The translations under genes were made by a program, and so were the position numbers. Below are positions 1,322 through 53,794 of a stretch of DNA of 64,000 nt, piece after piece. Position 1 is the stretch's first letter. The number at the start of each line of letters is the position of its first letter. Below the pieces are notes generated by a model. It did not search any database. It saw only the letters and a program-made list of their open reading frames with translations, and was not told where the DNA came from. Source of the DNA: Naegleria gruberi (Eukaryota); assembly GCA_000004985.1 (NCBI GenBank), contig GG738904.1; one strand, given 5' to 3'.

Positions 1322-4300
1322 ATGGAACATTTACTCGTGTTGACTACTGTTGAAAGAATTGGTGATTCTCTTCCAAGTACACCTTCATCACAAAGAAGAA
1401 AGGGTTTCAATTTGAAGGGTTATATTAAAACACTCAATGAATTGATTGTTTTGCCAAATATTGACTTACACAAAGTGGTTCAACCTCTCGTTGATCTCTA
1501 CGATAATGTCTCTAAAGTAAGTAGTTTTTCAGAAGGCTGTAGTGGTTTATTAACGCTACATGGTTTTTTTGTTGCAAATTTCATTATCATCATGTTTGGC
1601 GCCACAATTTTGTATCTTCCAATGACACAATTTTTCAACAATAACAACAACAAAACAAAATGATGATCAACTAATAATATCATCATCATGCTGGTTATTA
1701 TGTTGATATTTATCTAACAAAAACAAATTATCATATATAGACCACAATCAATGCTACATTAAAACCTTCTGAGAAAAGAACAAAATTAGAGTTGATCAAC
1801 AAATCAAAACTCATCATTCTCAATCTATTATCGGATTATATAAATTTTGCCATCGAAAATAAGGAAGTAAGTATGAATTATTGTGAGGTTCATCAATATG
1901 AATTTGTTATTATTATTATTAATAATATATTTAATAGCTTGTTTTGCCAAATCATCACTTGAACAATTTGTTCTGTCAATTTGATAATGATGATCTCTTG
2001 TTGGAAGAGAGACGTCAAGAACAAGATGAAGAAGAAGATGAAGATTTAGTTGCACTTGTTAAGGAACAATCAAAGAATGCTCATCAACCATCACAATCAG
2101 CTTCAACAATTACAGAAAGTACAAATGAAGGTAACGAATCTCCAAGTATTAAAAATGGATCTCTCAATCAGATCAGTGATTTCGAATATGGGCATGAAAG
2201 AGGTAGATCACCAAGTGGCTTGGGAGCATCTCTTGATTATTTAAATGCTTACAAGCAAAGAAAACAAAAGAAATCTTCATCAAAATCACAAAGAAACTTT
2301 AATGTAAAGAGAAGTGCTGCCACTTTTACTCAACCAAAAGAATTGGACGAAGCAACAGCTCTCAACATTATTCAATTAGTTTCCACTAGATTATTATTAC
2401 AACATGATATGTTCTATGATGCCACACAAGAAGAAATCCAAAAAACAGCAGTTAATAATTATCTTGAACAACAAATTTCCTATAGATGTATGGAGATACT
2501 ATTCAAAATAAGTGTTTGTAAACCAGATACTGTTTTCAAGACTATTGTTGGTGATTCATTACCTACATCACTTAATAATAACTGTATGGATATCAGTTTT
2601 AATACTGATCTTCAATCTGACAAACTTCCTTTCTCTTCCTCTCTTTCACATTTCAAACTGATCGAATATGTAAATTGGACAGTTGGTAATTTAGAAAAAC
2701 TCTTAAAGGCAGTCAATGAAAACATGAAAGGTTTTACCAAATATTTGGAAGTCTTAACACCTCCTTTAAGATTAGCTATATGGAACTTTATTACAAACTA
2801 TAATAATGAATTTGTTGATATCATTAAGAATCCAAATGCTTCAATTGTTAATACAGCTAGAGAAACATTTGATAATATTTATAAACAAACAGGAAAGAAA
2901 CAAAAAAACAAGACATGGCCAGCACTTGCCACTTTATGCGTTTTGACTGCAGATGATCTTCTAAAGTGTGTAAAGGCAGGTAATGGTAAAAAGTTTGGTG
3001 GCAGTGAAAATATGACAACATTTATTCACAAAGATCTCTTAAAAGCAATGGAAGATAAGGATAAGTCTCTTATTTTACCTCCATTGATTGACATTTATAG
3101 AGCTGTATCATATGCACCATCAGATGTAGAAACAGCCTTTGCTGTTCTTTCTCTTTTGGTGGAAGAAAAATTCCTTTCCATTTTTGTACCAGAACCAACA
3201 ACAGGAAAAGTTTCTAAATGCTATAGTCCAGAAGAGTTGAATGAACTCGAAATGTGGACATTTTATGTAACAACACTTTATAGAAGAAGCCCAGAAAAAT
3301 GCAAAAAACAACTAATGATACCAATAATGGCAGATGGTACTTTAGAGCAAAAACAAACAGTTGCCAAAGTACTTCTTTTCCTTCTTACTGATAGATCTTC
3401 TCAATTTACCTACAATAGAAAGTTAGAAGTAGACTTTAAAGTACTTGCTTCATCTCTTCGTGAATTTTTCATTTCGACTACAGATCAATTCAAAGGTAAA
3501 GCAAGAGAAACTGGTGATGATAATACTCCAACATTAGCACCAAGTGCATCCTTTAGAACACCAAAGAAAGGCTTTGCAGCTCTTTTAAGAGAGAAAGTAG
3601 GTGGTAAGGACAGTAGTAATTCTCCTACTGGATTGGGATCATTCGCAGGTCAACCAAACTTTAAAATGTTTGATACTGTTAACACAATTCTTCACGTTTT
3701 TTGTGCTGATCCAAGGTTTTTCCTTACAAAGTCAAACGAATCCGATCAAAATATCAATAATTTTGCCTATTTGGCTGACTTCTTTGTGCTAAATTCTGAC
3801 CCAATTGTACAAGATCAAATAACTAGACTTTTCCAAAAGCTTTTCTTAGAACAATATATTAAGAACTGGGGAGATGATTTATTTGTTGGATTCAGTACTA
3901 TCTCAACAAGAGTTTTGTCAAGACTATCACCTGCTCTTTTCCTTCTTAATGAATTGGAACAATTGCAAGCAACAAAGACCTTACTTTTCCTTTTGAGAAA
4001 CATTACCTATTGTGCTAAGAAATTCTATATTGCTAACAGAGACACTTATTTACTTTTGGAACACATTAGAACTAACCCTGACAGAATTAATACTCTTGAA
4101 GTTTTATGTAGTAACTTATTGGTATGCCTTTGCTCAACTGATAAGGAGATTTGGCAGTCTACTACAAGATGTTTGAGAGATGTTTGTGACCAAATTGAAA
4201 TTTTGAATAATCACAACATTAAGAAGTTGAATTACAATTTTTACAGACAATTGGCAAGCATTGACTTGAATGGTAAATTTTACAATGAAAGAAAGTCACA

Positions 4301-7300
4301 AATCCAACTTTTCAAGAGAGTTGAAACTCAAACACCATCCATTTTGAAAGCCTTTGGTGAGGTTTATAACAGATGGAAGGAACTTCTTGATCAACTCAAG
4401 AGTGAAGATTCTGCTTCAAATATTACCTTGAGAGATTTGTTCCCTAATTACACCTCTTTGCTATGTGCTCTCGGTGGTGTATGCATTCAAGATACAAAGG
4501 ATGAAGATTCAAGCTTTGTTCTTGATTTCTTAAAGCCAGAGGCAACAAGTGCCAATAATGTTGACAGTTATATGGATGACTTGATGAAACAAGTTATTTC
4601 AGACGATGTCAATGTCAGACAAATGGTAACCATCTCTGTTTCTACTGATTTATCACCAAGTCTTTTCACTAAATTGTTCACTGCCATGAAGGCTTCAGTT
4701 CAAGAACAATTCGGACAAACATTTGTTATTAGTCAAAAGAATAACTTACTTGTTGATCAATATCTTCACATTCTCAAGACAATTGTTGAAAATCCAGATA
4801 CTAATACTGATCTTTCTCTTGCTCAAGAAATTGATTCCATTACTGATCTCTTTGCTAACTATTGTACACACAGCGAATTTGATAACAAGGATGTCCTTGA
4901 GTTGAAGAAGAAATTATGTCAATTCCTTGAAGTTTTGATGAGCAAAGTTGAATACTTGACTTTCAAGAACATTGAAGAACAAAAGTTGAGAAGAACAATC
5001 ATTGGTCACGTTATGGAATGGACAACTGATTCTGTCTTTAAAGAAAAGACATCAACCGGAGCAAGTGTATCAACTCCTCGTGTTGCTTCTGAGGCTCCTC
5101 TTCTAGAAAACAATTCCCAAGTTTCAACTGAAGTCAAGAAACTCTACACCGATCTTGATTTGTTGTGCATGAAGGCATGTACTTCCCTTATCAATGGTAT
5201 GGTTATTGCAAACGATGAAAAAGGAAGAGAAGAATATTCAAAATACTTTGCTTTCTTATTGAGATTCCTTGAAAAGGCTAAAGACAGTACTTTTACAGCT
5301 ACAATTTACAAGGCCTTCTCTAGATTATTGCAAACAAACGTCAGTTTTGGTCTTGAGTATTACATGTCAAAGGTCTACGATAATAATAACACTATTAGAT
5401 CAACATTCTTGGGATTGCTATCTGAATTGATCAAGAAGGGACTTTTGGTTGAAGAAGAAGAAAAAAATAAGCAAGACAGAGTTTCTATTTCTGAATACCA
5501 AGAAATTATCAACAAACTTGTCTTTACCAATAGAAAGAGAGCTCTTTTTGCACTTTTTGATAAGTGCAAGAATCCAGAAAAAGATGATTTGTGTGAAGCT
5601 GTTATTAGAGTTTATCAATCAAAGGGTGAAATTGATAAGAATTTATTAGATTTGTTCCGTCAAAGTGTTACCAGAGAAGTTGCAACCACACCAAAATCAC
5701 AACCTGAAACTCTTTTCAGAGCTAACTCAACCTCTACTAAACTCTTAAAGAAGTACTGTTTGAGAGTCAGTAACCCATACTTGACAACTGTTATTGGTGG
5801 GTTCATCGATACTATGTGTACTAAGCCAACCAAATTTGAAATCGATCCACTGAAGGCTCAACAAAGAGGAGAAAGCGTTGAAGAAAACGTTGAAAATATT
5901 CTTGAAGTATTACAAGAATTTATTGACTGCCTCTGTGATTCAGTCCAACAAACACCTTACACCTTCAGAATGTATTGCAGATATTTGTACGAAGAAGTTG
6001 GTAAGAAATTCACTAAACCAGATGATGACAATGATGAACAATTTGACTTTAAATATATTGCAGTTGGTGGTTTCTTAATTTTGAGATTGATTTGTCCAGC
6101 CATCACTTCTCCACATTTGTATGGTTTGTCAGGAAGTGATATTCCTGCTGACTCTAGACGTTATGCAATCATTCTTACAAAGTTGGTTCAAAACTTGGCA
6201 AACGGTATTGTTGACTCCAAGAAGGAAGAATTCATGAAGAATTTTGTTGATATTATTAGACTTAATCTTAACAAGATTCAAACCTATTTTGAAAAGATTG
6301 CTGCTCCAATAGTTGAAAATGAAGAAGTTTTGAGAATTGAAGAAACAGTCACTGAAGATGAATTGAAGGAAGCATATGAAGTTCTCTATAGATTCTTCTA
6401 TAACTATGCTGATACATTGAGAGAAGAATTAAGTTCACTCTATGATGATATTGAAGATGAGGAAAAGGAAGTATTGGAAGAAGTTGATATCAATGAAAAG
6501 CCATCCTCTAAACAAAACGGTAAATCTCTCAATGATCTCTTAGAAAAGGCTATTGAACAATTTGGTAAACCAGCTGAAGAAGAAAAAACAGGAAGAAGAC
6601 TTTCTGTAAAGCTTAGCAAGGATGATGAGTTCTCCAATCCATTACTTAAGGAATTGCTCAGAAAGAATGAAAAGAAAGATACCTCAAAGATTGCTGAAAT
6701 GAAATTCTTCTCTATCAGTGAACACAAGAATGCTAAGAATCAACGTATAGTTTATTTCATTCCTTACAATTTGGATTTGACTAGATTCTCTCTTGATTTA
6801 TACTTGTACTATGTTCTCAAGAGTATGGAAACCATTTGGAAGGAACCTTATATCATTGTTGTAGATTCTACCTTCTTGACAAAGAAATTTGATATTCGTT
6901 TGTCTGTATTTATTCAACTTTCCAAACACATTCCACAAGGTGCAAAGAAGAATCTTCAAGAAATTTACTTGGTTAACCCAAATACATTCTTCAACAAGAC
7001 CACTAAGAAGCTTGTCTCCATGTTAAGTCATAATCGTTGGAAGGTCATTACTACCAGCTCTTTGCCAGCTGTCACTGACCAAAAATCAAAGACTCCAACC
7101 TCAAAGGATCCATTAGAACTTGTCAAACCTGAACATTCTATGCTTCCATCTCTCACTCAACAATTGTATGAAAAGAGTGAAATAATATATAATACTGAAG
7201 TTGTTCTTGCTTCTCATACAACTGATTGTGAAATTAGACTCTTTGATCAATACATGTTTATTGTTATCAAGGGAGAAAAGTTTATTAATAACAAGGTACC

Positions 7301-10217
7301 AGCAGATTGTTTGGAACATGTCAATGTAACAAAGATTGCCAATATTGCTGTAAAGAAGTCATTGTTTGGTAAATCAAGCAAGGCCACTAAAGATTTTGTT
7401 GTCAAGTATATTGATGATGAAGATGCTGAAGCAGCCTACAACTTTAGAGCTCAAACCATTGAAGAAAGAGACCAAATTATGCAAGGTATTAGAAACTATG
7501 TTGAAAGAAAATCAAGAGGAACAAAGACTGGAAAATCTCTTGAACGTGAATTTAAGAGACTTAAACTTCAAGATGTACCAGGTCAACTCCTTGCTATTTC
7601 ATTCTTCAATCTCGATTCTAAACACACTCCAATTAGAGCTAGTGCTTATTCGTTACTTGCTTCTATCTTTGAACAAGTCAAGATTTCTTCTCATGGTTTG
7701 ATTTTAGAAAGTGATGCTGCTTATGTTCCAAGAAATACTGAAAATACTGTTTTGAGAATTAGTGAATACGTTGCCAGAAATAAGCCTGAACTCACTTTAG
7801 AATTCATTTGTGAAGCTCTCAATGCCTTCAAGACAATCCAAGGAAATAAGTCCAAGTTGAAGTTTGCATCCTTCATCCTCCCATGGCTCGATAACTTGTC
7901 AAGATTTGAAATTTCTACTAGTGTTGATGAAGTTGATGAAAAGACCGAAACAATTAAGAATTGGTTCGAAAACTTTACCAAACTCTGTATTGCCAATGAA
8001 GAAATCTATCCAAAATTACAAAATGTTTGGAAGCACGTCTGTAAACTCTCTTTGCCACTCATTAGAATTGCTATTGAGAGTGTTATCAAACAAGGTACAA
8101 CAAGTGAAATGCTCATGAATGGAGAACAATCTATTATTGGCGATATTTTAGGAACTATTTTGTTGCACTCACCTCTTCAATGGAATGTGGCTCAATTTAT
8201 CATTAACAAGATTGTTGAACCACTCATGACAGAGGAATTGAATATTGACCTTTTGAACAAAGCAACAGTTAAAGAGTTGGTGAAATCAAAAGATATTCTA
8301 GGCAAGATTCCAGTTTACATGTCTTATCTCCTTATGTTGTCTTTTAATAGTCAAATCAATTTGTTAGAGAATTTGCCATACGTACTCTTTATTATTTCTC
8401 TCTTCTTGGGTGTTGGTTCAGATACCTACTTGAGATCAATTGTTTATGGTATTTGTTGTAACTGTGTTCACTCCCTTGTTTTGGAATTGCCAGCATGTGA
8501 ACAATTTGAGCATGTAAGAGCCAAATTGCAAAAGCTTCATTTGAGAGTTCTTGAAAAGGACATCAAGTCAAGTTTCATGGGTGGTGAACATGAACCACAA
8601 CCTTTTGCCTCATACTCTGATTTTGTCAATAAGGTTTCACAAGGAAAGGTAACATTCGATGAAACTACCATGTACAAGTATGAAGATATCATGAGATACT
8701 TTAAGGAAATCATTGAATGCTTTGACTTTAGTTACGATAGCCTTATTCAAGCTAGGGGTAAGACTTTGAAATCTCAATTTGGTTCTACCATTATAACCTC
8801 ATCCAAGGCAACTCATAGTGTTATTGAAGAATCATCTGAAAATTCCAAGGATATGGATGAAGATGGTACAGAAAATGATATGACAGAAGGAGAAGTTGAT
8901 GATGAGCATAACGGTTCTAATCCAAGCACTAGCACCTCAGATATCGTTAAATCTGGCAGTGATACCATCAAGAGTGTTTGGTTGAAGATCTTTACCAACT
9001 TATGTAAGGATACCATGAAGACAGCCAATCTCTTATTGTTCCCTAAATCTTTAATCTCATTCAGTATTATTTCCACCTCAGAACAATCATATGATATGAT
9101 TCCATTTGTTCTTAACTTTATTGGTAAGCGTGGTGTTGAAACTCTCTCCGAAAATGAGCTAATGTTGTCTGTTCTATTGTCAATTAACCAATTCTGTATT
9201 AATATGGTTGTTGAAAAGGATAGAATTGAAACTTTGAGAAAGATTATTATCTTTGGATTCTTCTTGTTGACCATTGCCAACACAAAGATTTATTCTGCTG
9301 TAACCAAGTTGCTCAGTACAGTTTTTGCCATTCTTTTTGAAGCTAGAGATATTCATGACGGTTTCTTGTCTATTGGTGATTACTTTAATCAAGTTTTCAG
9401 ATCTGACTACTCCAAGTACCTATCCATCACTAAAGAATTTGAAGAAACTGTTGGACTTTCATTTGGCCAACACTTCTCATTCACCGTTTCTCTTCTTCTC
9501 ATGAAGGGACTTGCTATTGATGACTCCACCATTAGAAAGGCAACTATTTCTCTCCTCAAACAAATCCTCTCTATCAGTTACAAACTCAAGTTTGAACCAC
9601 AAAACCAACTAGGCTTTATTGCTGCTTTAATTCCATTCGATAAGCAGTACAACTCTGTATTATATAGTGAACAACTCTATTCTGAAAGCATGTTCACTAA
9701 GGAAACTGTTTTCCTCTTCCAAAAGTACCTCTTTAGCATTACTGCATCCAACATTGATCTTGATAGCTGTGCTTCTGTTTATAGATCACTTGCAAGAGGT
9801 TTTGAAGCCATTCCTGATACTTTTGCAGATGTTTTCCAAGATCACCACAGTATGTCTCAAGTCATTAAGGTATACACCTCCTCTCAAGATGATACTATCA
9901 TTGAACATAGTTTGAATCTTTTCAAGATTATGAGTAATAATGCCAAATCAAAGAAACTTCAAGTTAAGGAACCATTTGCTGATTATGGATTCAAAGGTTT
10001 CCGTGATCAAACTACATTCCAAACCACTAAGGATGACTTGAAGAAGAAATGTCAAAAGACTTTGATTACATTCTTAACTGAAAACTTTAATGAACAAGAA
10101 TATCCATCCATGGATTCTGTAATTATTTCCAAGACTGGTATGAAGAAATCATTCCTTAAAGCCGCCTCTTCAAGTCCAGTTGTAAGACAAGCATCAGGAA
10201 CAAACTTTAAGAAATAA
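1322..10217 (+). CDS. nfaA: Neurofibromin (NF1-type RasGAP) orthologue with a Sec14/CRAL-TRIO domain; three exons: 1322-1516, 1741-1866, 1938-10217 (about 2866 aa)
   Basis: The RasGAP signature YIAVGGFLILRLICPAITSP...KLVQNLANG is colinear with the human NF1 GRD (FEIDP, FLRxxxPAIxSP, KxxQxxAN). A Sec14-like segment (IVYFIPYNLDL...YIIVVDSTFL...EIYLVNPNTFF) follows. The two 5' introns have GTAAGT donors (1517, 1867) and AG acceptors (1740, 1937), and all junctions are phase 0. The long exon is one uninterrupted 2757-codon ORF. Confidence 0.85.
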
Positions 10218-10345: not shown

Positions 10346-10992
10346 ATGTCAAAACCAACTTTGAATATTTGCCTGTTGGGAAATGTTGATTGTGGAAAAT
10401 CAACACTGACAGGAAAATTATTAGAAGTTATCGGAGGTGATTCTTCCTATTCTGAAAAGATTAAAAAATCAACTAGTAAGAATTTTGTCGAGTCAAAAAA
10501 TCATTTCTTGAATTTAATGGATGTTTGGGGTATGTGGAATTAATTGTGATTAAAATTGAAAAGTATTGATTTAAAGTGGATCAATACCTCCTGCTGGAAG
10601 TAGCAAAGGTATTTGAGGAAGATTCGAACAAGGGTATTAGAAATATAGTGATAATTGTATTGGATGCCTCGTCAGGTGGATATGAGGCCGGCCTTAGTCA
10701 ACTAAAACATCTCTTGCTATTTTTGAAAACTCTGGAAGGTATTATGCATAACAAACAATTTATATTTTGTGTGAATAAGATGGATCACTCAAGTGTTAAT
10801 TATTCTGAATTGAGATTTAAAGAAATTGTCAATGAAGTATCTAGAATGGTCACTCGGCTTGGATTCTCACAACCACCACCACAATTCATTCCAATATCCT
10901 CACTGAAATGCGAAAATATTTTAGAAAATTGTGAAAACATGAGTTGGAATGCAAGTCAACCTTCACTACTGGATGTTATAAACTCATTGTAG
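10346..10992 (+). pseudogene. EF1-alpha/Hbs1-family translational GTPase-like G domain, degenerate (switch I/II motifs missing, domains II/III absent); either a two-exon gene (10346-10529 + 10577-10992 with a 47-nt intron) or a decayed pseudogene
   Basis: MSKPTLNICLLGNVDCGKSTLTG matches the G1/P-loop GHVDSGKST. IVIIVLDASSGGYEAGLSQ...FIFCVNKMD matches EF1A VLIVAAGVGEFEAG...VGVNKMD (G4 NKxD). IPISSLKCENI matches IPISGWNGDNM. No GITI/Thr (G2) or DAPGH (G3) is present. The ORF ends at the end of the G domain. Read in the exon-1 frame, the 47-nt gtatgt...aag segment resembles the missing switch-I region weakly (W..LK....I....WK) and includes in-frame TAA/TGA codons. Confidence 0.45.
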
Positions 10993-11196
10993 CAAAAATC
11001 TTTCATGTTCCTGCCAGGAATTGAACCCCGGACTTTCTAAAATGGTCCGTTGTAAAATTCTACAGTTTTCAAAATAAATCAAGAGTATACATTTTTCGCA
11101 AAGTTTAATCTCTTGATAGTTAGTAATCTGAAAGGGAATCTTCACCTATTTATCTCTCAGTTTTCATAAAGAAAAATATATAAAACAAAATGATAA

Positions 11197-11953
11197 TCAG
11201 CTGAGGATAGATTTGATCTTTTCAATGACATTTTTTCTATTGCCACATCAACTGTTGAAAATATTGATTCCTCTTTAATGTTTGAAATGCTTCTTGCTTT
11301 GAAGAATGATGACACTAGTATTTTGTGGGAAAATATGTATCAATCCATTCTCAAACTTCATCAATTGTTGGCCGCCGAAAGTGTTTCAAACTCATTCTCT
11401 AGAATGGTAAAAGATTTGGTTAAAAACAAGTATGAATCAATTGGATGGACCAATGTACCAGGAGCAGATGAAGATGAGGAAAATCTTGATGAATTACGTC
11501 CATCTCAATTTGGCCTGTCGTTTTGGTCTCACTGAATGTGTCACTGAAGCCTTTAAACGTTATCAAGAAAGAAACTCAACCATTATTCCTCCAATTCTTC
11601 GTAATGCTGTTTATAGAGCTGTTGTTTCTAATGGTGGAGAACGTGAATATTATCAAATTTTGAATCAATTCAAAGCTGAGCAAGATTCTGTGGAAAGAAC
11701 CAAGTTAGTGTATGCAAGATTCCACTCTTGCAAACGACCTTGGATTTGGCCCTTTCTCCACCATGTTAAGCCACAAGATAGTATCTTCCTTATTAGAGAA
11801 GTTGCAAGAAATGTACCAAGTGGACCAAACGTTGCTTTTGTCAGAACTAGATATGATGCCATTCTCTCAAAATGTGGACAAGATCAAGTCAGTAATAGAT
11901 TATCATATGGGGTTGGTTCTCTATTCACTAATATCTTTGAAAGGGATGAATAG
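11197..11953 (+). pseudogene. 3'-terminal fragment (about 250 codons) of an M1-family aminopeptidase (puromycin-sensitive aminopeptidase-like C-terminal ERAP1_C region), with an internal frameshift near 11490
   Basis: Frame 1 (AEDRFDLFNDIFSIATSTVENIDSSLMFEMLLALKNDD...ESIGWTNVPGADEDEENLDEL) then frame 2 (HLNLACRFGLTECVTEAFKRYQ...ILRNAVYRAVVSNGGEREYYQILNQFKAEQDSVERTKLVYA...HVKPQDSIFLIREVARN...) are colinear with the C-terminus of metazoan PSA (DRLGLQNDLFSLARAGIISTVE...LRSPVYLTVLKHGDG...EVRPQDTVSVIGGVAGG). Homology begins abruptly after in-frame TGA/TAA codons at about 11190. There is no room upstream for the roughly 650-aa catalytic (HEXXH) domain on this strand. Confidence 0.6.
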
Positions 11954-11989
11954 ATTCAATATTTTGCTCCAAATATTGAAAAATTGAGC

Positions 11990-12568
11990 ATGAAGCATTA
12001 TTATATTAGTGGAATGAAACAATTAACATTACTTAATATTGGGAACAATCAAATTGGTGTAGAAGGATCCAAATTCATACATGAAATGAAACAATTAACA
12101 TCACTTGATATATATTATAATGAAATTGGTGTAGAGGGATCCAAATTCATAAGTGATATGAAACAATTAACATCACTTAATATTAATTACAATCGAATTG
12201 GTGATGAAGGAGCCAAATTTATAAGTGAAATGAAACAATTAACATCACTTGATATTTATAACAATGAAATTGGTGTTGAAGGAGTCAAATCAATAAGTGA
12301 AATGAAACAATTAACATCACTTAATATCAGTGGAAATCAAAGTGGTGCCGAAGGAGTCAAATTAATAAGTGAAATGAAACAATTAACATCACTTAGTATT
12401 AATTACAATCGAATTGGTGATGAAGGAGTCAAATTAATAAGTAAAATGAAACAATTAGCATCACTTGATATTAGTGGAAATGGAATTGGTGATGAGGGAG
12501 CCAAATTAATAAGTGAAATGAAACAATTAAAATCGCTTAGTATTCATAACCAACAGATGTTTAAGTAA
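11990..12568 (+). CDS. Leucine-rich-repeat protein made only of about 8 tandem 24-aa RNI-like repeats (MKQLTSLDIxxNxIGxEGxKxISE); possibly a 3' exon or an orphan array
   Basis: The ORF-track protein is a near-perfect array of 24-aa repeats, which equals 72-bp tandem DNA repeats. The frame opens only 3 codons before the ATG (at 11981), immediately after the aminopeptidase fragment. No F-box or other N-terminal domain is found upstream. Confidence 0.45.
   Translation: MKHYYISGMKQLTLLNIGNNQIGVEGSKFIHEMKQLTSLDIYYNEIGVEGSKFISDMKQLTSLNINYNRIGDEGAKFISEMKQLTSLDIYNNEIGVEGVKSISEMKQLTSLNISGNQSGAEGVKLISEMKQLTSLSINYNRIGDEGVKLISKMKQLASLDISGNGIGDEGAKLISEMKQLKSLSIHNQQMFK
12000..12560. repeat. Tandem 72-bp coding repeats (LRR units); the same repeat family recurs at 29680-29990
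   Basis: An identical 33-mer, agtgaaatgaaacaattaacatcacttgatatt, occurs at about 12231 and about 29755. The period is 72 bp. Confidence 0.8.
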
Positions 12569-12673
12569 AATCCAAAAAAAAGGATTTGGCCAGACTCTGC
12601 CTCACACTCATTATAATAACTGTTAAGATTCTACTCTTTTTTTTTACTTAATGTATCTAAATCTCTGCCCATT

Positions 12674-14334
12674 CTATCCTAAGGTGTGAACTCCTTGTTG
12701 CGAATTAAATGGTGCTTCGGTTGATGTTGTTGGGTTATCATCTTGTGCAATAGGTGTGGTGGCTGTTGATTCAGTTGCATAATTTGTAGTTGCATTGGAT
12801 TGTGAACTGCTTGTGGCACTACTATCAACAGGTGTTGTAATGTTAGTGTTAGCAGCAGGTTGTGTCATGGTATTGATTATCCTTGGTTTGACATCTTCCA
12901 AAAGGGTTGGAATAGATTGAGAAAGTTCCTTCTCTGTTAACTCCCACAACTTTGGAAGAAAGTCTGAATACTTCAATATTATTCATTACAAGTATCATAT
13001 TCTTCAACAATTCTGGAAGAGCCTCCCTCAAATGATCACTCTTTGGTTTGACGAGTAAAAAGTTGTACATAACTTGAAGAATGGTGAGCCACAATGAAGA
13101 GAAACCATTATCTTGTTGACTTTCAGTATTATTCACAGGTAACATTCTTGGTAAAAAGTGCAGGAATATTCTAGCAAGTAAGTTGTTGGCTCTGACCCTA
13201 AGCTCTTCTAAAGAGGAAATATCCATTTCTGTATTGTGATTGGTTTGATATTCAGTTGTCTTTGGTTTGAGTGTGAGAAGAGTTTGGAAAAATGTCTTGA
13301 GCAATACACGATCCATACACATCATTAAGAGTTGATCATTGAGGAGATATTTTAGATTTTGTGAGTCTTCTTGGTTGGCAGTGAATGAATATCTGAAATC
13401 ACAACTATAAACAAGAGATCTTTGTAAGGTTGAAAGTGCTTGGGTTCTAATATCTCTTTGGAGGTGGCTCAACATTTGAATTTGACTATTATTCAATTGT
13501 GACATTAGTAAGTTCAGAACATTGACCGGTCCACTAGTGTTAATGCCACCAGTGCAACACAATACTGCTATACCTTCAAGAATTGAAAGCCAAGCATTGA
13601 TCCACTTGTTATCCAATTTGATGACGTTTTGGGATGAGTTAGCAGATGAATAGGCAATGGATACAATTCTCTTCAAAATTTCCATAACCAAATTTTCCAA
13701 AATGATTAAAATGTCCATTGTGAGAGCCATAAGCTTTTTAAGGGTGGATACAAATTGTTGGGAGCTATTGCTTCCATTGGAGGTGTTTTGAATATTTACA
13801 TTTGTTGTAATGGAAGAACTCAAAACGGACAAGATACTTTGGACAATGTTGGGAAATTATCAGGAACAACAAACCATAACCCGAAATGAGTAGTATCATC
13901 CTGTAATGTAGAGTATTGAAAACTGAGAGTAAGTACATCTAATGATCTGGTAATTAATTGTAATGGTTGTGAAGGTTTGATGGATGTGAAGAGTGAGCTA
14001 TTAGGATTATTATTTATCCATGAGGAGGAAACGTTGGAAATACTTCTCAAAATCTTGAAAACTAAATGATCCCACAAATCTACAATAAGTCTTGATGAGC
14101 TATCAGTAAATATTGTGGAAGGATTAAGATTGGTAGCATTTGTACGATCTTGAATTTGGTAGCCATTGGTGAGAGTAGAGTTTCACCTTGTCTCGACAAG
14201 AACATGTGAATCATAGGAAGTAAACTATTATGGAAAACACCCAACATGGTTTCACTCCATTGCTTACCAAGGTTATCAATAAGGACAGAGCATTTCTTTT
14301 TGACCAATCTCCCATTCTGCTTGATTTTCAACAC
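12674..14334 (-). pseudogene. GBF1-like (Golgi brefeldin-A-resistance factor / Sec7-family ARF-GEF) C-terminal HDS region only; split across at least 4 reading frames; no Sec7 domain or N-terminus present
   Basis: The 327-aa ORF contains WLSILEGIAVLCCTGG...DIRTQALSTLQRSL...LRVRANNLLARIFLHFLPRMLP...SSLWLTILQVMYNFLLVKPKSDHLREALPELLKNMILVMNNIEVF. This is colinear with the human GBF1 C-terminus ([71 protein letters not shown]). The next GBF1 block, LWEITWERIDCFLPHLRDELF, appears as LWELTEKELSQSIPTLLEDV in a different frame (ORF 12674-12976). Upstream pieces (13820-14077, 14080-14334, possibly 14617-14823) are in further frames. A reverse-strand GTAAGT at 14463-14468 does not give a frame-consistent splice. 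The upstream 3+ kb needed for DCB/HUS/Sec7 is occupied by a plus-strand gene. Confidence 0.5.
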
Positions 14335-14931
14335 TATTGAATTGGGTAATGTTGCTTGGTCATTCTTGTTCTGATTGGTTGATTATTTGTTACTGGGAGT
14401 GGGCTGTTTCTATCGCTACCAGAACTAGTACCGAAAGGATTGGATGAACCTACAGATGGTGGAGCATTATGTACTTACAAGGAAAAGTCAAAAGTTTCTT
14501 GACTACTTTGGGAAAGAATGAATCTTTTGGAAGATTGGAAGAATTTACAATTGGAATGTATGTCGAGGCAACAGAATTGCAAAAATTGAAGAAATCTCTC
14601 AAACGTTTGACTCGAGTTAAATCTGAAGAGAATGACTGTTAGGTCCGTTATTAACTTGGTAAATGGATTGAATGGTACTGATTGGTTGGTATAATTGCAA
14701 AATGGAAATCATTAATTTGTAAACGTGTATACTGTAAACATAATTCCAAATAAGTTTCAATCTTTCGCAACCAGTATTTCTATTCAAATTATTATTAATC
14801 AAAACATCACACAATAAATCCAAACAGAAGAGGGAAGTATCAAAGTCTCTTTCATAATAGTAATAGGTTGCATTTTGTTGTTGTTTTCAATGTGAACAAG
14901 TGAGGAGCAGAATGAATGTGCCAATTAAAAA

Positions 14932-17900
14932 ATGCAAGACGATAAATCATCAATTCCCGAAGGTGTCGTTGCTGATGAAGAAACAAATCCAACTATTCCA
15001 GGACATGAATCCACCATTGAACAAAATCCTTCTTCAACGGAGGAGAGCAAAATGACCTATCCAACACTCCACAAAAGTTTGAAGAAATCTTTCAGTCAAA
15101 TTGTGTCTTGTGGAGGAAGTTTTGTTTGTTCTGATAAGTTTGATGGTGTGACACTTCCTGGATTGGAATTACTTGTTTCTGCTGCTCAAGATTCTGATAA
15201 GAAATATAAAGCAATGCCCTTTCCGATTGTTTATAAAGAGCAAGCTGATGAAATTATTAGAATTGCAAAGAAATCACCTTATGGAAAGGGAGAGGAAACA
15301 ATTTATGATGACAATGTGAGAAATTCCTATGAATTGGAACCAAATCAATTTAGAATTACAAATACAATGTGGCAAAAAGAATTAAATCAATTATTGGAAA
15401 CAAAAATTAAAAGTGGACTGGGAATTGACAAGTACAAGAATGTGGAATGTAAATTGTACAAATTACTATTGTATGAAAAAGGAGGACATTTTGAATATCA
15501 CAAAGATTCTGAAAAAGAATGTAAACAAACATGCACATTGGTTATTATTTTACCATCCATCTTTGAAGGAGGAGAATTCAAAATCAAACACAATGATTAT
15601 GAAATGGAAATTGCCACAACAAATGATTATGCAACTGAGTGAGTATTATAGTATGAACAATTTATTGAAAATTAATTTCAAATCTCCCATTATTGAATTT
15701 AATCATGATGAATTCTTGGCAGTTGTCATTTCATTTCATTTTACTCTGATTGTGATCATGCTGTTATGCCACTCACAAGTGGATACAGAACTTGCCTTAT
15801 CTATAATATTATTGTAACAACTCATCAAGAAAATCAGCAATTATCCATTGCAGATAATCATGTACATTCTGAAAATGTAAGAGAACAATTATCAGAGTGG
15901 TTGAAAACTGATTTGTCCAAGAAACCATTAGTTTATTTGCTGGAACACGAATATACAACAGAAAGTTTAGTTTTTGGATGTGAAAATTTGAAAGGAAATG
16001 ATTACAAAATTTATTCTGCACTCAAAGCATCCAAATTGCCATTGCTCTTGTTTCCATCTTTCTTTACAAAACGTGTTAATGAAGGGTTTAGTGATGATGA
16101 TTTCTTTGAAGAGGGAGTGTTTTTAACCATCTCTAAAATGTACTTTGATGAAAAGGCAATACTTTCCGATGTCTCTGTTTCGCCATCTCAGGTTTTTTCA
16201 TTTCCAGGAAAAGATATGAAAGATATGAAACTAACAAAGTCAACTGAACATCAAACAGGTAAGTACGAGAGAATTATTTAGATAGTTAATCATTCTAACA
16301 GGAAATTATGGAACTCAATCATCTAAATGGTATCAAAAAACATGCTTGATCATTTCTTCTAATCAATTTAGTTCAATTGTGGAGCTAGGATTTAATTTTG
16401 GTATGAACTACTTTGAATTTCTTTCTAAAGCTGAAAGTGAGCAGATTAACGAATTTTATGAATCATTTACAAAGGAAGAATGGAAATTACCATACAGACA
16501 TACTATTAGCAAGCAAGAGATGTTCGTAATGACATTAATTAAAACTGGCAAGAAAGATTTGACCAAAAAATTCCTTGAGGAAGAGTGTAGCTCGGCCTCA
16601 ATCACAGCAAAAGCTTTAAAACAATGTTTGAATGTATTTGAAGACCAAGAGTTTAAACAGATTGTTTTTCAATATTGTATTGATAGTTTAACAAATCTTG
16701 AACACGGACATAAGCTTGATATTGATGAATACTTGGAAGCACTAGAGCCGTTCGTTACCCCTAAAATGGTAAACTATATTGAAACACAGCTGGTCAAATC
16801 AGTCGATTCAATCCGTAATCTAAACTCATTCTACTTATTTTGTGAAAAAAAGCGAGACAAATTTAGTTATACATTTAATAAGGGTTAGTTTTCTACATTT
16901 ATTTCAATGCTCACCCTATTTAGATTTATTTTTACCGATATTTAGATCTCTTTATAGCCAATTAAAACACTGCAAAGCTCAATATTTTCCTCTTTGTGAC
17001 ACTTATATGTGTGAGGAATTTGTAAAAGGTACAATAGAATTCTACTTTAACAATGATTATAATAGAGGTTTACAACTCATTCAAAAGTATGGATACAATA
17101 CATTTGATCCAAATAAGGTTTTTTCAGTTTTGAACCCATCCCATTATTTTGAAAATTACAAAAAAGATATTGAAGACAATGAGTTGAAATTGTTCTATTC
17201 TGGATTTAGAAAATACATGATTGAAAAACGATTACTTGATAACCGATCTGAGAGAGAAGTAGTTCTCAAACATTTACTCGAAAAAGAAGAGTATGAAACT
17301 CTCTTGCATACTTTGAAAACCTATAATAAGAATGTCATTAGTAATATTTATATTTTGGATAGATTTCTAAAGAATTTCAAACCAATAGTTGATAATACTA
17401 TATTGCAACAATGGATTAATATAACGCAAATGTGTATCTCCTCTATTAAGGGAGGCTTGTCTAGAAGCTATATTGAAATATTAACCTACAAACTTCCTCA
17501 CACTTTGCCATGCACTTGTGAGCTGTGTGCATCTGTACAAAAGTTTTTAAAGAGTTCTAAAGACTCCTTTTCCAAAATTGGAGTTTCTAAAACAAGCTAT
17601 GATCACGTGAAAAGTTATTTGGAAAAATTAGAACGTTTGAGTCAATATTGGTCAAATGAAAAATTAACGATTAACAAGAGTGGTTATTCTAGCAAATATA
17701 GTGAAAATATTATGAGATATGCTTTAGAAAACCTCAATGAATTATTACAATTTTTGATCCACCACCAAACTGATAAAGACTCTAGACCTCAATTTAGCTT
17801 TACAAGAATTACAGCATCTAGCCCAGCTGGAGAAGAGAGTGTAAAAAGAGAAGCAGAACGGGTAGAGAAAGAGAAGAAAGAAAGACTCGAAAGGGAAGAA

Positions 17901-29321: not shown

Positions 29322-29995
29322 ATGAGCAAACGAAAAAGACAAGATTTTGAAAATCATCAATTAATTAATTCGGTGAAGGAAATATTCACTAACAATAGTT
29401 TGGAAGAGAAATCAAAAAAGAGTGGGAAATTCCAACAAGAAATATTTTCAGATGATGTTTGTTTTGAAATAATTTCCATGCTCGATGATTCGTGGTTTAT
29501 TTTGAATAATTGTTCCTTGATTTCAAAACAATTCTTTAATGTGATCAAGGAACGCAATTTAAAAAAAAAATTACAGAGAAACGAGTTGAATTATTCATGA
29601 AAAGTCAGTTTAGGAATAGAATTATTAATCTTAAAGTTTTTAGATATTTGCTTGACTCTTTTGAAAAACTCAAATTCATTAGTGATATGAAACGATTAAC
29701 GTCACTTGATATTTCTTTCAATCAAATTGGTGTACAAGGGGTCAAATTCATTAGTGAAATGAAACAATTAACATCACTTGATATTTCTTTCAATCAAGCT
29801 AGTGATGAAGGTGCTAAATACATAAGTGAAATGAAACAATTAACATCACTTAATATTACTAATAATGAAATTGGTGATGAAGGAGCTAAATACATTAGTG
29901 AAATGAAACAATTAATATCACTTATTATATCTAGGAATCAAATTGGTGATGAAGGTGCTAAGTACATTAGTGAAATGACACCACTAGGAAAATAA
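29322..29995 (+). CDS. Small F-box + RNI-like LRR protein; two ORF-track pieces (29322-29600, 29597-29995) are probably one CDS interrupted by a frameshift at an A10 tract (29561-29570)
   Basis: The F-box-like segment is DDVCFEIISMLDDSWFILNNCSLISKQFFNVI. Downstream there are four or more 24-aa repeats (MKQLTSLDISFNQ.SDEGAKYISE) from the same 72-bp repeat family as 12000-12560. Reading through the A10 run with a 1-nt shift gives a continuous ...ERNLKKK(K)ITEKRVELFMKSQFRN... It is head-to-head with the 27274-28959 F-box/LRR gene. Confidence 0.5.
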
Positions 29996-39793: not shown

Positions 39794-40034
39794 TTTTTTT
39801 AAATTTTTAAAGCTGTATTTTTACGCGCCCTCAATAACAGTTACAGATGTTTGCTGTTTATTGTTCGTTTTTTTTAATTGTCAGCTGAAGAACAGTGAAT
39901 GGAAATTTACAGCCCTTTTCTTTGCTGTCATCTATGAGTGGTCAATTTTTGAATCTAGTAAAATGATTCAAAAGAATTCTTTAGATATAAAAGTATTGAG
40001 CATTTAAAAGAGATACTAGCAGTAGTAGTTTTTA

Positions 40035-42214: not shown

Positions 42215-42264
42215 NNNNNNNNNNNNNNNNNNNNNNNNNNNNNNNNNNNNNNNNNNNNNNNNNN
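42215..42264. other. Assembly gap (50 N)
   Basis: A run of n characters. It lies about 130 bp 3' of the stop of the reverse-strand gene at 42393-43595. Confidence 0.99.
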
Positions 42265-51872: not shown

Positions 51873-53794
51873 TCACTTTTTATTGAAATTATTTTCTATA
51901 TATGGATCTGCAAATCTTAGTGAGTCTTTTAAATATTTAGACAATAGAGAATCAATAAATTCTTTCAATTGTTCTTTTTTAAGGAATGGACTGTTAGTAT
52001 TAAGATGTTTGAGAATTTCAGCATTACTAAAATCGGTCAATAGTGGAGATACAGTTGGTAGTTGTGTTATTTCAGTTCCATCGAGTTGAGATTGTTTATC
52101 AGTTACAGTGGTGAATTCATTATTTTCAATTACATAATAAATAAATAATTCTTCAAGAGTATGATTTGATTGTAGATAATTTAAACATTCTTTACAATTC
52201 TTTACTAGTAACTTGCTTAATTTCTTAAACATGTTCAAAAGTATTTCATCTAAATTCAGATAATTATGTTTACAATCAATAATTAATTTCATTAAATAAA
52301 ATGATAAATTATATTGGCATTGCATCTTGTTAATTCTTGATCGTTTTTTAAATAATATTTGTATAAATTTAATTGTATTATTTTCAAATAAATTTAAATA
52401 GTGTTTAATTTTGGTTTCAACATGTTGTTGAATTGATAAAATATACTTGTTAATATCTTTTAATTTATCATTATTATAATTAATTGTTTGTTGTTTATAT
52501 TTTACAAGAGTTTTTTCAAGTAAATCTTTTTGTAAATTATTTTCCTTCACTTGTTCTTTTATAATATTAATATTATTATTATTGGAACTTTTTTGTTTTT
52601 CTAATTTAATATTCATATTATAAATTAAATTTTGAATTTTTAAAATATTTTCATTTCTACTTGTTAATAAATAATTTCTTTGATTATAAAGAGTATTTCT
52701 ATTTTTAGATAAAATAATATCATTTTCTGTTTTTATCATTTTTCTTTGAAATTTGGCAACTAGTAATTTTAAATATTCATTTTTAATAAAATAATTACTA
52801 ATAAAATATTCCCAAAATGATTCATTACTATATATATTATAAAATGATTCATTAATTTCAAAATTTTCATTTGGATTTTGAATATAAAAGGAACTAAGTG
52901 CTTTTTGTAAAATTAATAAATTTCTTTCATCTCTTAAAATGTAACTTGTTAAATATTTTATAAATTCATTTCTATATTTGGATGGAATGTTAGAAAAATT
53001 AAAATTTGGATTAAATTCTTCTAAATTTGTTTCATTATTTAATAAATTATTTGATAAGTTAGATGTATTATTATTATTATTATTATTATTATTTGATGGA
53101 TTGGAAGATGTTGAATTATTTAATTTTTGTGGAATTTTTCTTTCCAAATTAATTTTATCAGTTCTAATATATTTTTAATAAAATCAAGTAAAAATAATAA
53201 AAATTACCTTTCTTGTATTAATCTTCTAATTCTATTTATATAAATTTTAAATTTTTCAATTTCATTATTTAAAATTTTCATTAAAATTGAATTTTGTTTA
53301 ATATCATTTCTAATATTTCCATAATTAATTTTATCATTTATATTCCAATTTAATTGTTGATTTTGAATTGATTGAAGATTTCTATAAATTTTTTGTGCAT
53401 TTGATAAATTTAATTTTAAATTTTTAATTTGTTTTTTTAAATTTAATTGTTTTCTATTTGAAATTTCTAAAATTTCCATTAATTCATCAATTCCACCATT
53501 ATTTAAATATTCTTTAAATGTAATATTTAATAAATTATTATTATTATTAACATTTTCAATTGTTGTTTGATTATTTTCATTAAAATTTAAATTAAATTTA
53601 TAATCATCAGAAATTTTTAATAAATTTTCATCTCGTTGACTTTTTAATTGTTCTAATAGTAAATTTTCTCTTCCATCAAATTCTCTATTTAAAATTATTT
53701 CCGATAGGATCGTATTATCATCTATTAGATTATTTATTTGTGCTATGGATGGTGATGATTGATGACTTGGTGATGATAGAGGTGATGACATCAT
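51873..53794 (-). CDS. Asn/Lys-rich coiled-coil protein (about 620 aa), two exons: 53794-53208 and 53163-51873; function unknown
   Basis: The donor is GTAATT (complement of 53202-53207) and the acceptor is at the complement of 53164-53165, with a 44-nt intron. The phase joins ...RLIQE-R-TDKINLERKIPQKL to ORF-track 51873-53147. The composition is dominated by N, K, I, L and Q heptad-like runs. Confidence 0.5.

What the first reader, a model, noticed from the sequence alone, without database searches (positions are those of the whole stretch)
10346..14823. Contiguous cluster of truncated/degenerate gene pieces between two intact genes
Four unrelated partial gene pieces and one tRNA-like remnant lie back-to-back within about 4.5 kb. 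They are a switch-less EF1A-like G domain (10346-10992), a tRNA-like remnant (11008-11075), the last roughly 250 codons of an M1 aminopeptidase with a frameshift (11197-11953), a bare 8-unit LRR array (11990-12568) and, on the other strand, the C-terminal third of a GBF1-type ARF-GEF split over at least 4 frames (12674-14334+). None of the protein-homologous pieces has room for its missing N-terminal portion. They are bounded by apparently intact genes (NF1 orthologue and a 2OG oxygenase). This looks like a pseudogene 'graveyard' or a scar of segmental duplication or rearrangement, which is unusual in an otherwise compact, intact-gene landscape. A chimeric mis-assembly is the alternative.
Basis: partly seen in the sequence, partly recalled or inferred. 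Interest (0 to 1): 0.6.

Follow-up and report, generated by a model that had tools for sequence, protein, structure and literature searches.

The report
Cluster of decayed gene remnants, Naegleria
A 4.6-kb stretch of the Naegleria gruberi genome, lying between two intact genes, is filled with broken leftovers of at least three or four unrelated genes, which is ordinary genome decay and mostly matters for correcting the annotation.

Summary
The window is Naegleria gruberi. Four window ORFs are exact matches to EFC38850, 38853, 38858 and 38863.

The observation mostly holds, with three corrections.

1. The GBF1 piece is longer than reported. It runs 12674-14908 on the minus strand, right up to the start codon of the 2OG-oxygenase gene. 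It matches only the last ~700 of 2100 residues of N. fowleri GBF1, at 74% identity in the best segment. It is split into 8 frame segments and carries a 169-nt insertion and a ~30-codon deletion. No Sec7 or N-terminal part exists anywhere in the 64 kb.
2. The M1 piece is only an ERAP1_C domain (Pfam positions 34-300 of 318). It has one definite frameshift and a read-through stop. The annotated protein XP_002671594 is just the longest ORF of this relic.
3. No tRNA tool detects the "tRNA remnant".

The G domain keeps an open frame through a 47-nt intron. It lacks switch I, the DxxG glycine and domains II and III. The LRR array is an intact ORF, but it lacks the F-box-like head found on a paralogue 17 kb away.

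Best reading: a patch of non-functional gene relics. The GBF1 relic looks like a young, DNA-level partial duplicate. This is ordinary and of low interest.

The parts
10346..10992 (+). Degenerate EF-Tu/EF1A-superfamily G domain. Exon 1 is 10346-10529, the putative 47-nt GTATGT..AAG intron is 10530-10576, and exon 2 is 10577-10992. The P-loop (GNVDCGKS) and NKMD motif are kept. Switch I is missing, DxxG reads DVWV, and there are no domains II/III.
   Evidence: Pfam GTP_EFTU, E 2.7e-14. Alignment with P0005 and P0006. Best database relative is only 31% identical, and there is no self-hit, so the piece is unannotated. Coding-potential score is 0.0-0.2 against a mean of 0.36 for real genes. The start codon has the native-like AAAAAATG context.
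11006..11075 (-). tRNA-like T-arm and acceptor motif (GGTTCAATTCC). This is an unverified tRNA remnant.
   Evidence: No tRNA found by ARAGORN or Rfam. The B-box pattern occurs once in the window, with 0.09 expected. It aligns partly with the window's tRNA-Phe.
11197..11953 (+). Relic of the C-terminal ERAP1_C domain of an M1-type aminopeptidase. A stop lies directly upstream (TAA 11194-11196). There is a 1-nt frameshift at about 11488-11503, a possible paired frameshift at about 11712-11770, and a read-through TAG at 11951.
   Evidence: Pfam ERAP1_C positions 34-300 of 318, at 128.8 bits after frame correction against 75.5 bits for the best single frame; the alignment runs through the TAG. The only database hit is itself (P0001 = XP_002671594). 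Codon usage is strongly native (0.37-0.51). No catalytic motifs are in the window.
11990..12568 (+). Bare array of 8 RNI-type leucine-rich repeats with a 72-nt period. The ORF is open, has no N-terminal module, and ends mid-unit.
   Evidence: LRR_6 E 9.5e-33. Repeat family D1/D2. A paralogue at 29322-29995 carries an F-box-like head that is missing here. Its ATG lacks the A-rich start context. dN/dS against the paralogue is 0.34.
12569..12673 (.). Shared 3' flank of the convergent LRR and GBF1 pieces. It contains an A-run on each strand (A8 at 12574-12581 on the plus strand; T9 at 12637-12645, which is A9 on the minus strand).
   Evidence: Sequence read directly. The native N. fowleri GBF1 locus has the same kind of A9 run about 35 nt after its stop. 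The run is therefore a genomic 3' feature and not a retrocopy poly(A) tail.
12674..14908 (-). Relic of the C-terminal ~37% of a GBF1-type ARF-GEF, equivalent to N. fowleri GBF1 residues ~1393-2100. It is read in 8 frame segments: 14908-14876, 14868-14653, ~14465-14340, ~14345-14315, 14310-14152, 14155-13847, 13853-12948 and 12955-12674. A ~30-codon deletion follows the ...TKQHYPIQ motif.
   Evidence: Full HMMER search gives P0007 at 78% identity, E 1e-128. P0007 equals N. fowleri XP_044567451. tblastn and tblastx segment maps. Pfam TPR_28. Relative-rate test: 37 unique changes in the relic against 26 in N. fowleri.
14466..14634 (-). 169-nt insertion inside the GBF1 relic, between ...QSIYQVNNGPNS and APPSVGSS.... 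It is absent from N. fowleri GBF1.
   Evidence: Comparison of three-frame translations with P0007. No second copy in the window. No clean GT..AG ends were seen on inspection.
1944..10217 (+). Intact upstream flank: an NF1-like RasGAP gene with a 2757-codon open frame.
   Evidence: RasGAP E 7e-30 and CRAL_TRIO_2 E 9e-23. ORF list.
14932..16259 (+). Intact downstream flank: the first exons of a 2OG-Fe(II) oxygenase gene. Introns lie at 15640-15722 and 16260-16302, and the gene continues downstream. Its ATG lies about 24 nt from the last recognisable GBF1 residue.
   Evidence: The spliced product hits 2OG-FeII_Oxy_3 positions 2-95 of 98 at 28.9 bits, above the cut-off. The sequence was read directly.

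Best explanation
The block 10346-14931 is a patch of non-functional gene relics in the Naegleria gruberi nuclear genome. It is not a set of working genes, and it is not an assembly artefact.

**Largest piece.** This is a partial copy of the 3' third of a GBF1-type ARF-GEF gene, made at the DNA level. The copy includes the stop codon and a native-looking 3' flank. It ends abruptly about 24 nt from the start codon of the neighbouring 2OG-oxygenase gene. It has since picked up 7 frame changes, a 169-nt insertion and a ~30-codon deletion. Its amino-acid sequence has hardly drifted beyond that of a functional orthologue. It is therefore a young pseudogene, or the recently disabled stump of the gene.

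**Other pieces.**
- The ERAP1_C piece is the frameshifted tail of a divergent M1-like gene whose catalytic 5' two-thirds have been deleted.
- The G domain is the 5' part of a translational-GTPase-like gene. It has lost switch I, the DxxG glycine and domains II/III.
- The LRR array is a member of a local F-box-like/LRR family without its head.

**What is shown and what is inferred.** Shown: homologies, frame breaks, truncations, and absence of the missing parts from the 64 kb. Inferred: the order of events. That order would be partial duplication and/or rearrangement, then deletion-biased decay, with at least two deletions (about 10993-11196 and at 14909-14931). Also inferred is that a functional GBF1 exists elsewhere in the genome.
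For: **Source.** The window is the N. gruberi scaffold of 297,120 bp. Four ORFs match GenBank proteins exactly.

**GBF1 relic.**
- Hits are E 1e-128 at 78% identity to N. fowleri GBF1 and 62% to Willaertia.
- Only residues ~1167-1867 of the 1874-aa P0007 are found, in 8 frame segments.
- N. fowleri encodes residues 237-2100 in one exon, so no intron can explain the breaks.
- The residues GETLLSPMATKF, which a hypothetical 38-nt intron would remove, are homologous to GENLLSPMGKKF. That junction is therefore a frameshift.
- Relative-rate test over 506 columns: 37 unique changes in the relic against 26 in N. fowleri, which is not significant.

**M1 relic.**
- The Pfam score rises from 75.5 bits (best single frame) to 128.8 bits when the frames are joined.
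- The alignment runs through the TAG.
- No GAMEN or HEXXH-X18-E motif is in the window.

**G domain.** Its coding score is weak.

**LRR array.** A paralogue has an F-box-like head. The LRR start codon lacks the AAAAAATG context.

**Against artefact.** There is no assembly gap within 27 kb. The adjacent 8.3-kb NF1-like ORF and the spliced 2OG gene are unbroken.

**Precedent.** Pseudogenes have already been flagged in Naegleria gene families (PMC8296547, supplementary table S8).
Against: - No reads, ESTs or RNA-seq could be inspected. The frameshifts are therefore taken from a single assembly.
- No full-length N. gruberi GBF1 could be retrieved. The relic could be a duplicate or the only copy.
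- The G domain (199 codons with an in-phase intron) and the LRR array (192 codons) have open frames. They could encode small proteins.
- The GBF1 relic shows many indels but few extra substitutions, and no in-frame stops in its well-aligned segments. That is a somewhat indel-heavy pattern for neutral decay.
- The M1 and G-domain relics have no close relative (>=45% identity) in the protein database. Their parent genes are unknown.
Confidence: 0.75

Rival explanations
1. Sequencing or assembly artefact. The frameshifts would be base-calling errors and the juxtapositions a chimeric join of unrelated reads, so the real genome would hold intact genes.
For: The GBF1 relic is nearly as well conserved as a functional orthologue (74% identity over 308 residues, with no stop in 302 codons). 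Its damage is mostly indels, which is what errors would produce. A second LRR gene in the window breaks frame at an A10 homopolymer.
Against: - The block lies in gap-free sequence.
- It sits beside an unbroken 8.3-kb ORF and a cleanly spliced gene.
- The two frameshifts inspected base by base are not in long homopolymers (sequence with the alignment).
- A 169-nt insertion, a ~30-codon deletion and five separate truncation boundaries are not base-calling errors.
- Four other ORFs in the window match the deposited proteins exactly.
Confidence: 0.06
2. Mobile-element-mediated patchwork. The fragments would have been brought together by a gene-fragment-capturing transposon (Pack-MULE or Helitron type), or by reverse-transcriptase template switching (5'-truncated chimeric retrocopies, sometimes including tRNA pieces). 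They would then have decayed.
For: - Several unrelated fragments lie back to back.
- Two of them (M1, GBF1) are 3'-terminal parts, as expected of 5'-truncated retrocopies.
- A tRNA-like motif lies between fragments.
- An A9 run follows the GBF1 stop.
- LINE-like genes (Exo_endo_phos + RVT_1) exist in Naegleria, as seen in L003.
Against: - No terminal inverted repeats or target-site duplications were found at any block or fragment boundary.
- The A9 run is also present in the native N. fowleri GBF1 3' flank, so it is not a poly(A) tail.
- The fragments are in mixed orientation.
- The G-domain piece is a 5' part with an intron, which is not retrocopy-like.
- No other copy of any spacer or of the insertion is in the window.
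- No tRNA is detected.
Confidence: 0.1
3. In-situ loss of native genes (unitary pseudogenes). The ancestral locus would have carried complete GTPase, tRNA, M1 aminopeptidase, LRR and GBF1 genes, whittled down by successive deletions without any duplication.
For: - The M1 and G-domain relics have no close relative in N. gruberi, N. fowleri or Willaertia proteins, as expected if a lineage-specific gene died in place.
- The G domain keeps a native start context.
- The LRR and GBF1 pieces keep native-looking convergent 3' flanks.
- M1 codon usage is native.
Against: - GBF1 is normally essential, and N. gruberi Golgi traffic is brefeldin-sensitive (PMC5963838). A functional copy is therefore expected elsewhere, which makes this one a duplicate.
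- The N. fowleri GBF1 locus shares no neighbour with this block.
- For the M1 and G-domain pieces, this rival is compatible with the best explanation and cannot be separated from it here.
Confidence: 0.3
4. Some pieces are still working small genes: a pseudo-GTPase (10346-10992), a stand-alone LRR protein (11990-12568), or an ERAP1_C-only protein (XP_002671594).
For: - The open frames are 199 codons (with an in-phase GT..AG intron) and 192 codons, in a 31% GC genome where random ORFs are short.
- P-loop and NKxD are retained.
- LRR dN/dS against its paralogue is 0.34.
- XP_002671594 is an annotated protein.
Against: - The first 24 residues of XP_002671594 are read out of the homologous frame, so the model is an ORF-finder artefact.
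- The G domain has weak codon bias, no switch I or DxxG glycine, and no annotated model or close homologue.
- The LRR array lacks the family's N-terminal module and the usual start context.
- Within-array pN/pS is about 1.
Confidence: 0.15

Closest known systems
Duplicated (non-processed) pseudogene / partial gene duplicate
   Same: The GBF1 relic is a truncated copy. It has multiple disabling frameshifts and indels, retains the stop codon and a native-type 3' flank, and has no poly(A) tail or target-site duplication.
   Different: The parent locus in N. gruberi could not be retrieved, so duplication is inferred and not shown. The copy is as close to the N. fowleri orthologue as a functional gene would be.
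GBF1/Gea-type ARF-GEF (N. fowleri XP_044567451, 2100 aa; Willaertia magna KAL9656602)
   Same: The C-terminal region, including the Pfam TPR_28 'GBF1-like TPR' domain, is 62-78% identical in its best-conserved segments. Identity is about 71% to N. fowleri and 47% to Willaertia over the 506 alignable columns.
   Different: The DCB, HUS, Sec7 and HDS1 regions are absent (about 1390 residues). The reading frame is broken 7 times. It cannot act as an exchange factor.
M1 aminopeptidase (ERAP1/APN family)
   Same: A clear ERAP1_C C-terminal domain is present (128.8 bits after frame correction).
   Different: There is no N-terminal or catalytic domain and no GAMEN or HEXXH-E motif. The piece is frameshifted. 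No relative above about 45% identity is in the database.
EF1A/EF-Tu-family translational GTPases
   Same: The G-domain fold signature is present, with the G1 P-loop, G4 NKMD and the characteristic GxYEAG segment. It is 31% identical to EF1A-like proteins.
   Different: Switch I is missing (a 29-residue gap). G3 reads DVWV in the spliced product. Domains II and III are absent.
Gene-fragment mosaics made by Pack-MULEs/Helitrons or by L1 template switching
   Same: Several unrelated gene fragments are juxtaposed within a few kb, some of them 3'-terminal.
   Different: No TIRs, TSDs, poly(A) tail, hairpin ends or additional copies were found. Orientations are mixed.

Membership tests
GBF1/Gea ARF-GEF | Catalytic Sec7 domain with upstream DCB/HUS regions | tested here: not met
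   tblastn of N. fowleri GBF1 (P0007/P0126) against the whole 64-kb window finds no significant match to residues 1-1166. There is no Sec7 Pfam hit in the minus-strand frames.
GBF1/Gea ARF-GEF | GBF1-specific C-terminal HDS/TPR_28 region | tested here: met
   Pfam TPR_28, E 1.5e-11, above the cut-off. Identity to N. fowleri GBF1 residues 1513-1807 is 74-78%.
GBF1/Gea ARF-GEF | Continuous open reading frame | tested here: not met
   8 frame segments, a 169-nt insertion and a ~30-codon deletion.
M1 aminopeptidase | Catalytic domain with GAMEN and HEXXH-X18-E motifs | tested here: not met
   The regular-expression scan of all six frames of the window finds none. A stop codon lies directly upstream of the relic, and only 200 nt separate it from the preceding ORF.
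M1 aminopeptidase | ERAP1_C C-terminal domain | tested here: met
   PF11838 positions 34-300 of 318, at 128.8 bits after frame correction.
Translational GTPase (EF1A/EF-Tu superfamily) | G1 P-loop and G4 NKxD | tested here: met
   GNVDCGKS and NKMD align with EF1A-like proteins. GTP_EFTU E 2.7e-14.
Translational GTPase (EF1A/EF-Tu superfamily) | Switch I (G2 threonine), G3 DxxG, and domains II/III | tested here: not met
   There is a 29-residue gap over switch I. G3 reads DVWV after splicing. The ORF stops at the G-domain boundary.
tRNA gene or tRNA pseudogene | Cloverleaf recognised by tRNA models | tested here: not met
   ARAGORN at default and relaxed thresholds, with and without introns, finds nothing. 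Rfam finds no tRNA at E<=10. Only a T-arm and B-box-like segment remains.
Processed (retroposed) pseudogene | 3' poly(A) tail and flanking target-site duplications | tested here: not met
   The A9 run 30 nt after the stop is matched by an A9 run in the native N. fowleri locus. Only one chance-level 8-mer is shared between the flanks, and it is not adjacent to the A-run.
Processed (retroposed) pseudogene | Loss of parental introns | not testable with these tools
   N. fowleri GBF1 has no intron in the corresponding part. The N. gruberi parent gene was not retrievable.
Duplicated (non-processed) pseudogene | Disabling mutations in a recognisable gene copy | tested here: met
Duplicated (non-processed) pseudogene | Intact parent gene elsewhere in the same genome | not testable with these tools
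   The rest of the N. gruberi genome is not searchable here.
Transposon-captured gene fragments (Pack-MULE/Helitron) | Terminal inverted repeats or Helitron ends, target-site duplication, multiple genomic copies | tested here: not met
   No boundary TIRs or TSDs. No second copy of the spacers in the window. Genome-wide copy number is not testable.

The most novel reading that the evidence does not exclude
The block could be the decayed cargo of a so-far undescribed mechanism in Heterolobosea that captures gene fragments or stitches them together by template switching. It would have landed next to a tRNA gene. Alternatively, the G-domain-only and LRR-only ORFs could be newly born small genes made from gene debris.
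Probability: 0.07. Interest if true: 0.55.

Novelty: new member of a known kind. Interest (0 to 1): 0.2.

Why it matters
The main value is for annotation and for comparative cell biology of Naegleria.

- XP_002671594 (NAEGRDRAFT_73400) should be treated as a pseudogene fragment, not as a protein.
- A GBF1-like C-terminal relic exists in N. gruberi. It could be miscounted as an ARF-GEF paralogue in surveys of membrane-trafficking genes.
- The block shows that this compact protist genome holds local pockets of young, indel-riddled gene debris. Such a pocket could serve as a small natural sample of the neutral mutation spectrum (indel against substitution rates) in Naegleria.
- It opens no new mechanism.

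Tried and rejected
1. **Word-indexed protein search with the 555-aa conceptual GBF1 translation**. It returned nothing. I therefore treat the word-indexed negatives cautiously. Searches scored all their candidates (387 and 180) and are more reliable.
2. **PDB sequence search for Gea2/GBF1 structures**. Only noise came back.
3. **Introns instead of frameshifts.** A 38-nt GT..AG candidate at about 14160-14200 was rejected, because the 'intronic' residues are homologous to N. fowleri GBF1. A 22-nt candidate at about 12960 is too short. No GT..AG pair fits the M1 break, where 17 nt span 4-5 profile positions.
4. **Retrocopy idea from the A9 run.** Rejected after the same run was seen in the native N. 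fowleri locus.
5. **The block as an insertion flanked by a TTAAAAAATG duplication.** Rejected, because AAAAAATG is the general start-codon context (9 of 17 genes).
6. **Giant-virus origin.** The best G-domain hit, P0005, sits in a virus-like contig. Scans of the viral collection found no relative of the G domain or the M1 piece, and identity is only 31%.
7. **Exact-sequence look-ups of window proteins in the contig index**. N. gruberi is not indexed, so there was no independent assembly to compare.
8. **Synteny.** The N. fowleri GBF1 locus shares nothing with the window outside the gene itself.
9. **Literature.** No paper describes this locus or N. gruberi GBF1 accessions.

Full report
**Source**

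The window is nuclear DNA of Naegleria gruberi.
- The 173-aa ORF at 11432-11953 is an exact match to EFC38850.1 / XP_002671594 (NAEGRDRAFT_73400).
- Three other ORFs match EFC38853, EFC38858 and EFC38863.
- All four lie on one 297,120-bp scaffold.
- GC content is about 31% throughout, including the block.
- The only assembly gap is at 42215-42264.

**Flanks**

Upstream is a continuous 2757-codon ORF (1944-10217) with RasGAP and CRAL_TRIO_2 domains, which makes it NF1-like.

Downstream, the gene starting at 14932 is intact once GT..AG introns are removed. The introns are 15640-15722 (83 nt) and 16260-16302 (43 nt). Splicing the first one raises the 2OG-FeII_Oxy_3 match from 18.8 bits (profile 2-55) to 28.9 bits (profile 2-95 of 98).

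Local introns are therefore short and canonical. That sets the standard for judging the breaks inside the block.

**GBF1 relic**

*Homology.* Pfam finds only the GBF1-like TPR_28 domain in the 327-codon ORF 12849-13832 (-). A word-indexed search with a 555-aa conceptual translation found nothing. The exhaustive HMMER search with the 327-aa ORF found three hits:
- P0007, 1874 aa, E 1e-128, 78% identity. It is 100% identical to N. fowleri XP_044567451, a 2100-aa Sec7 + TPR_28 protein.
- A Willaertia magna protein at 62%.
- 115 weaker hits (118 in all at E<=0.001), many of them full-length, GBF1-sized proteins.

*Extent.* tblastn and tblastx place P0007 residues ~1167-1867 on the minus strand from 14908 down to 12740. 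The stop is at 12674. The relic therefore fills the whole stretch up to the 2OG gene.

*Frame breaks.* The match falls into 8 segments. Coordinates and frames (start mod 3) are:

| Segment | Frame |
|---|---|
| 14908-14876 | 1 |
| 14868-14653 | 0 |
| ~14465-14340 | 2 |
| ~14345-14315 | 1 |
| 14310-14152 | 0 |
| 14155-13847 | 1 |
| 13853-12948 | 2 |
| 12955-12674 | 1 |

That makes 7 frame changes.

*Other lesions.* A 169-nt insertion (14466-14634) and a deletion of about 30 codons after ...TKQHYPIQ are also present.

*Not introns.* N. fowleri encodes residues 237-2100 in one exon. The residues a candidate 38-nt intron would remove are homologous to the orthologue.

*Missing part.* No match to the N-terminal 1166 residues, including Sec7, exists anywhere in the 64 kb.

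*Age.* Over 506 columns shared by the relic, N. fowleri and Willaertia, the relic has 37 unique changes, N. fowleri 26 and Willaertia 147. The relic's branch is not significantly longer, so the disabling is recent.

*Origin.*
- An A9 run lies 30 nt after the stop. It is one of only 7 A/T runs of 9 or more in the window, which first suggested a retrocopy.
- The native N. fowleri locus has the same A9 about 35 nt after its stop. No target-site duplication was found.
- The copy therefore carries a genomic 3' flank, which indicates a DNA-level origin.
- The N. fowleri GBF1 locus shares no neighbouring gene with the window.
- Whether an intact GBF1 exists elsewhere in N. gruberi could not be tested. 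It is expected, because N. gruberi Golgi traffic is brefeldin-sensitive (PMC5963838).

**M1 relic**

- ERAP1_C is matched in two frames. Profile positions 34-129 end at nt ~11487 and positions 134-288 begin at nt ~11504. Seventeen nucleotides span 4-5 profile positions, so this is a 1-nt frameshift with no room for an intron.
- Joining the frames gives 123.9 bits. Adding a second, paired shift around 11712-11770 gives 128.8 bits. That is weak support for two more frameshifts.
- In both versions the alignment runs through the TAG at 11951 to profile position 300 of 318.
- A TAA lies directly upstream of the first matched residue.
- The catalytic GAMEN and HEXXH-X18-E motifs are absent from every frame of the window.
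- Codon usage is strongly native: 0.37-0.51 bits per codon, against a mean of 0.36 for real genes.
- The database search found only the relic's own ORF (all 387 candidates scored).
- The annotated protein XP_002671594 starts 24 codons out of the homologous frame, so it is an ORF-caller artefact.

**G domain**

- The ATG at 10346 has the A-rich context typical of this genome.
- A 47-nt GTATGT..AAG intron (10530-10576) keeps the frame, giving 199 codons.
- The product hits GTP_EFTU (E 2.7e-14). It aligns with EF1A-like proteins at 31% identity.
- G1 (GNVDCGKS) and G4 (NKMD) are present.
- A 29-residue gap removes switch I. G3 reads DVWV after splicing and DVWG unspliced. The ORF stops exactly where domain II would begin.
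- Coding potential is weak (0.0-0.2).
- There was no self-hit in the protein database, so no model is annotated here.
- I read it as a decayed 5' stump. A small pseudo-GTPase cannot be excluded.

**tRNA-like remnant**

ARAGORN (default, relaxed, with introns) and Rfam (E<=1 over 8 kb; E<=10 over 131 nt) find no tRNA. What exists is GGTTCAATTCC with a 4-of-5 T-stem and a possible acceptor strand. The 11-mer pattern occurs once in the window against 0.09 expected, and 9 of 100 shuffles reach this. Identity to the window's tRNA-Phe is high only over the variable loop and T arm. The result is inconclusive.

**LRR array**

- Eight 72-nt units sit in an open 192-codon frame.
- A paralogous array at 29597-29995 is about 80% identical in nucleotides.
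- That paralogue is preceded by a 92-codon F-box-like ORF with a proper TTAAAAAATG start. The family architecture is therefore head plus LRRs.
- The block copy lacks the head. Its ATG lacks the start context, and it ends mid-unit.
- dN/dS against the paralogue is 0.34. Within-array pN/pS is about 1.
- It is probably a headless fragment, but it is the least certain pseudogene of the set.

**Tests of origin**

- No inverted or direct repeats mark the block or fragment boundaries.
- The apparent 10-nt repeat at both ends (TTAAAAAATG) is only the common start-codon context.
- No spacer or insertion has a second copy in the window.
- No relatives were found in viral contigs.

**Conclusion**

The most economical account is a small region where a partial GBF1 duplicate, a headless LRR copy and the stumps of two divergent genes have been left by rearrangement and deletions and are decaying. 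The two stumps are a translational-GTPase-like gene and an M1-like gene.

Artefact is unlikely because the damage is confined to the block, while the adjacent 8.3-kb ORF is perfect.

Pseudogenes have already been noted in Naegleria gene families (PMC8296547, supplementary table S8). No paper describes this locus.

**Verdict**

The pseudogene or rearrangement-scar interpretation is supported. The finding is ordinary, and I score its interest at 0.2.

Noticed in passing
window 29322-29995 (+): This is a second small F-box-like + LRR gene. A 92-codon head ORF and a 132-codon ORF with 4.5 LRR units lie in different frames, overlapping by 4 nt. The break sits at an A10 homopolymer (29561-29570). 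It could be another decaying family member or a homopolymer sequencing error.
   Followed up: partly
window 11432-11953 (+): GenBank protein XP_002671594 / EFC38850 (NAEGRDRAFT_73400, 'predicted protein', 173 aa) is the longest ORF of a frameshifted ERAP1_C relic. Its first 24 residues are read out of the homologous frame.
   Followed up: yes
L003 (N. fowleri VFQX01000007.1, 16022-42592): Exo_endo_phos and RVT_1 genes lie about 8 kb upstream of N. fowleri GBF1 and look like a LINE-type retroelement. The same assembly also holds a second GBF1 copy, split into two models (FDP41_011174 and FDP41_011175), on a 47-kb contig.
   Followed up: no
L001 (JGI metagenome 3300045024, Ga0492681_0000974): The closest database relative of the G domain (P0005, 31% identity) sits on a densely packed contig. 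The contig carries two GTP_EFTU genes, PP2C, TTL, a kinase, the ribonucleotide reductase small subunit and ubiquitin. This gene set looks like a giant-virus genome fragment.
   Followed up: partly
window 40001-42000, 52001-54000, 62001-64000: These stretches are markedly more AT-rich (GC 0.18-0.23 against about 0.31 elsewhere). The only assembly gap (42215-42264) is next to the first of them. Long ORFs still cover two of these stretches.
   Followed up: no
window 10576-11535 and 11432-12568: G-domain exon 2 and the first M1 frame share one reading frame. The second M1 frame and the LRR ORF share another, separated by a single TAG. This is probably coincidence (about 1 in 9), but it is the pattern a former fusion ORF would leave.
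   Followed up: no
Negatives from that tool need this caveat.
   Followed up: yes
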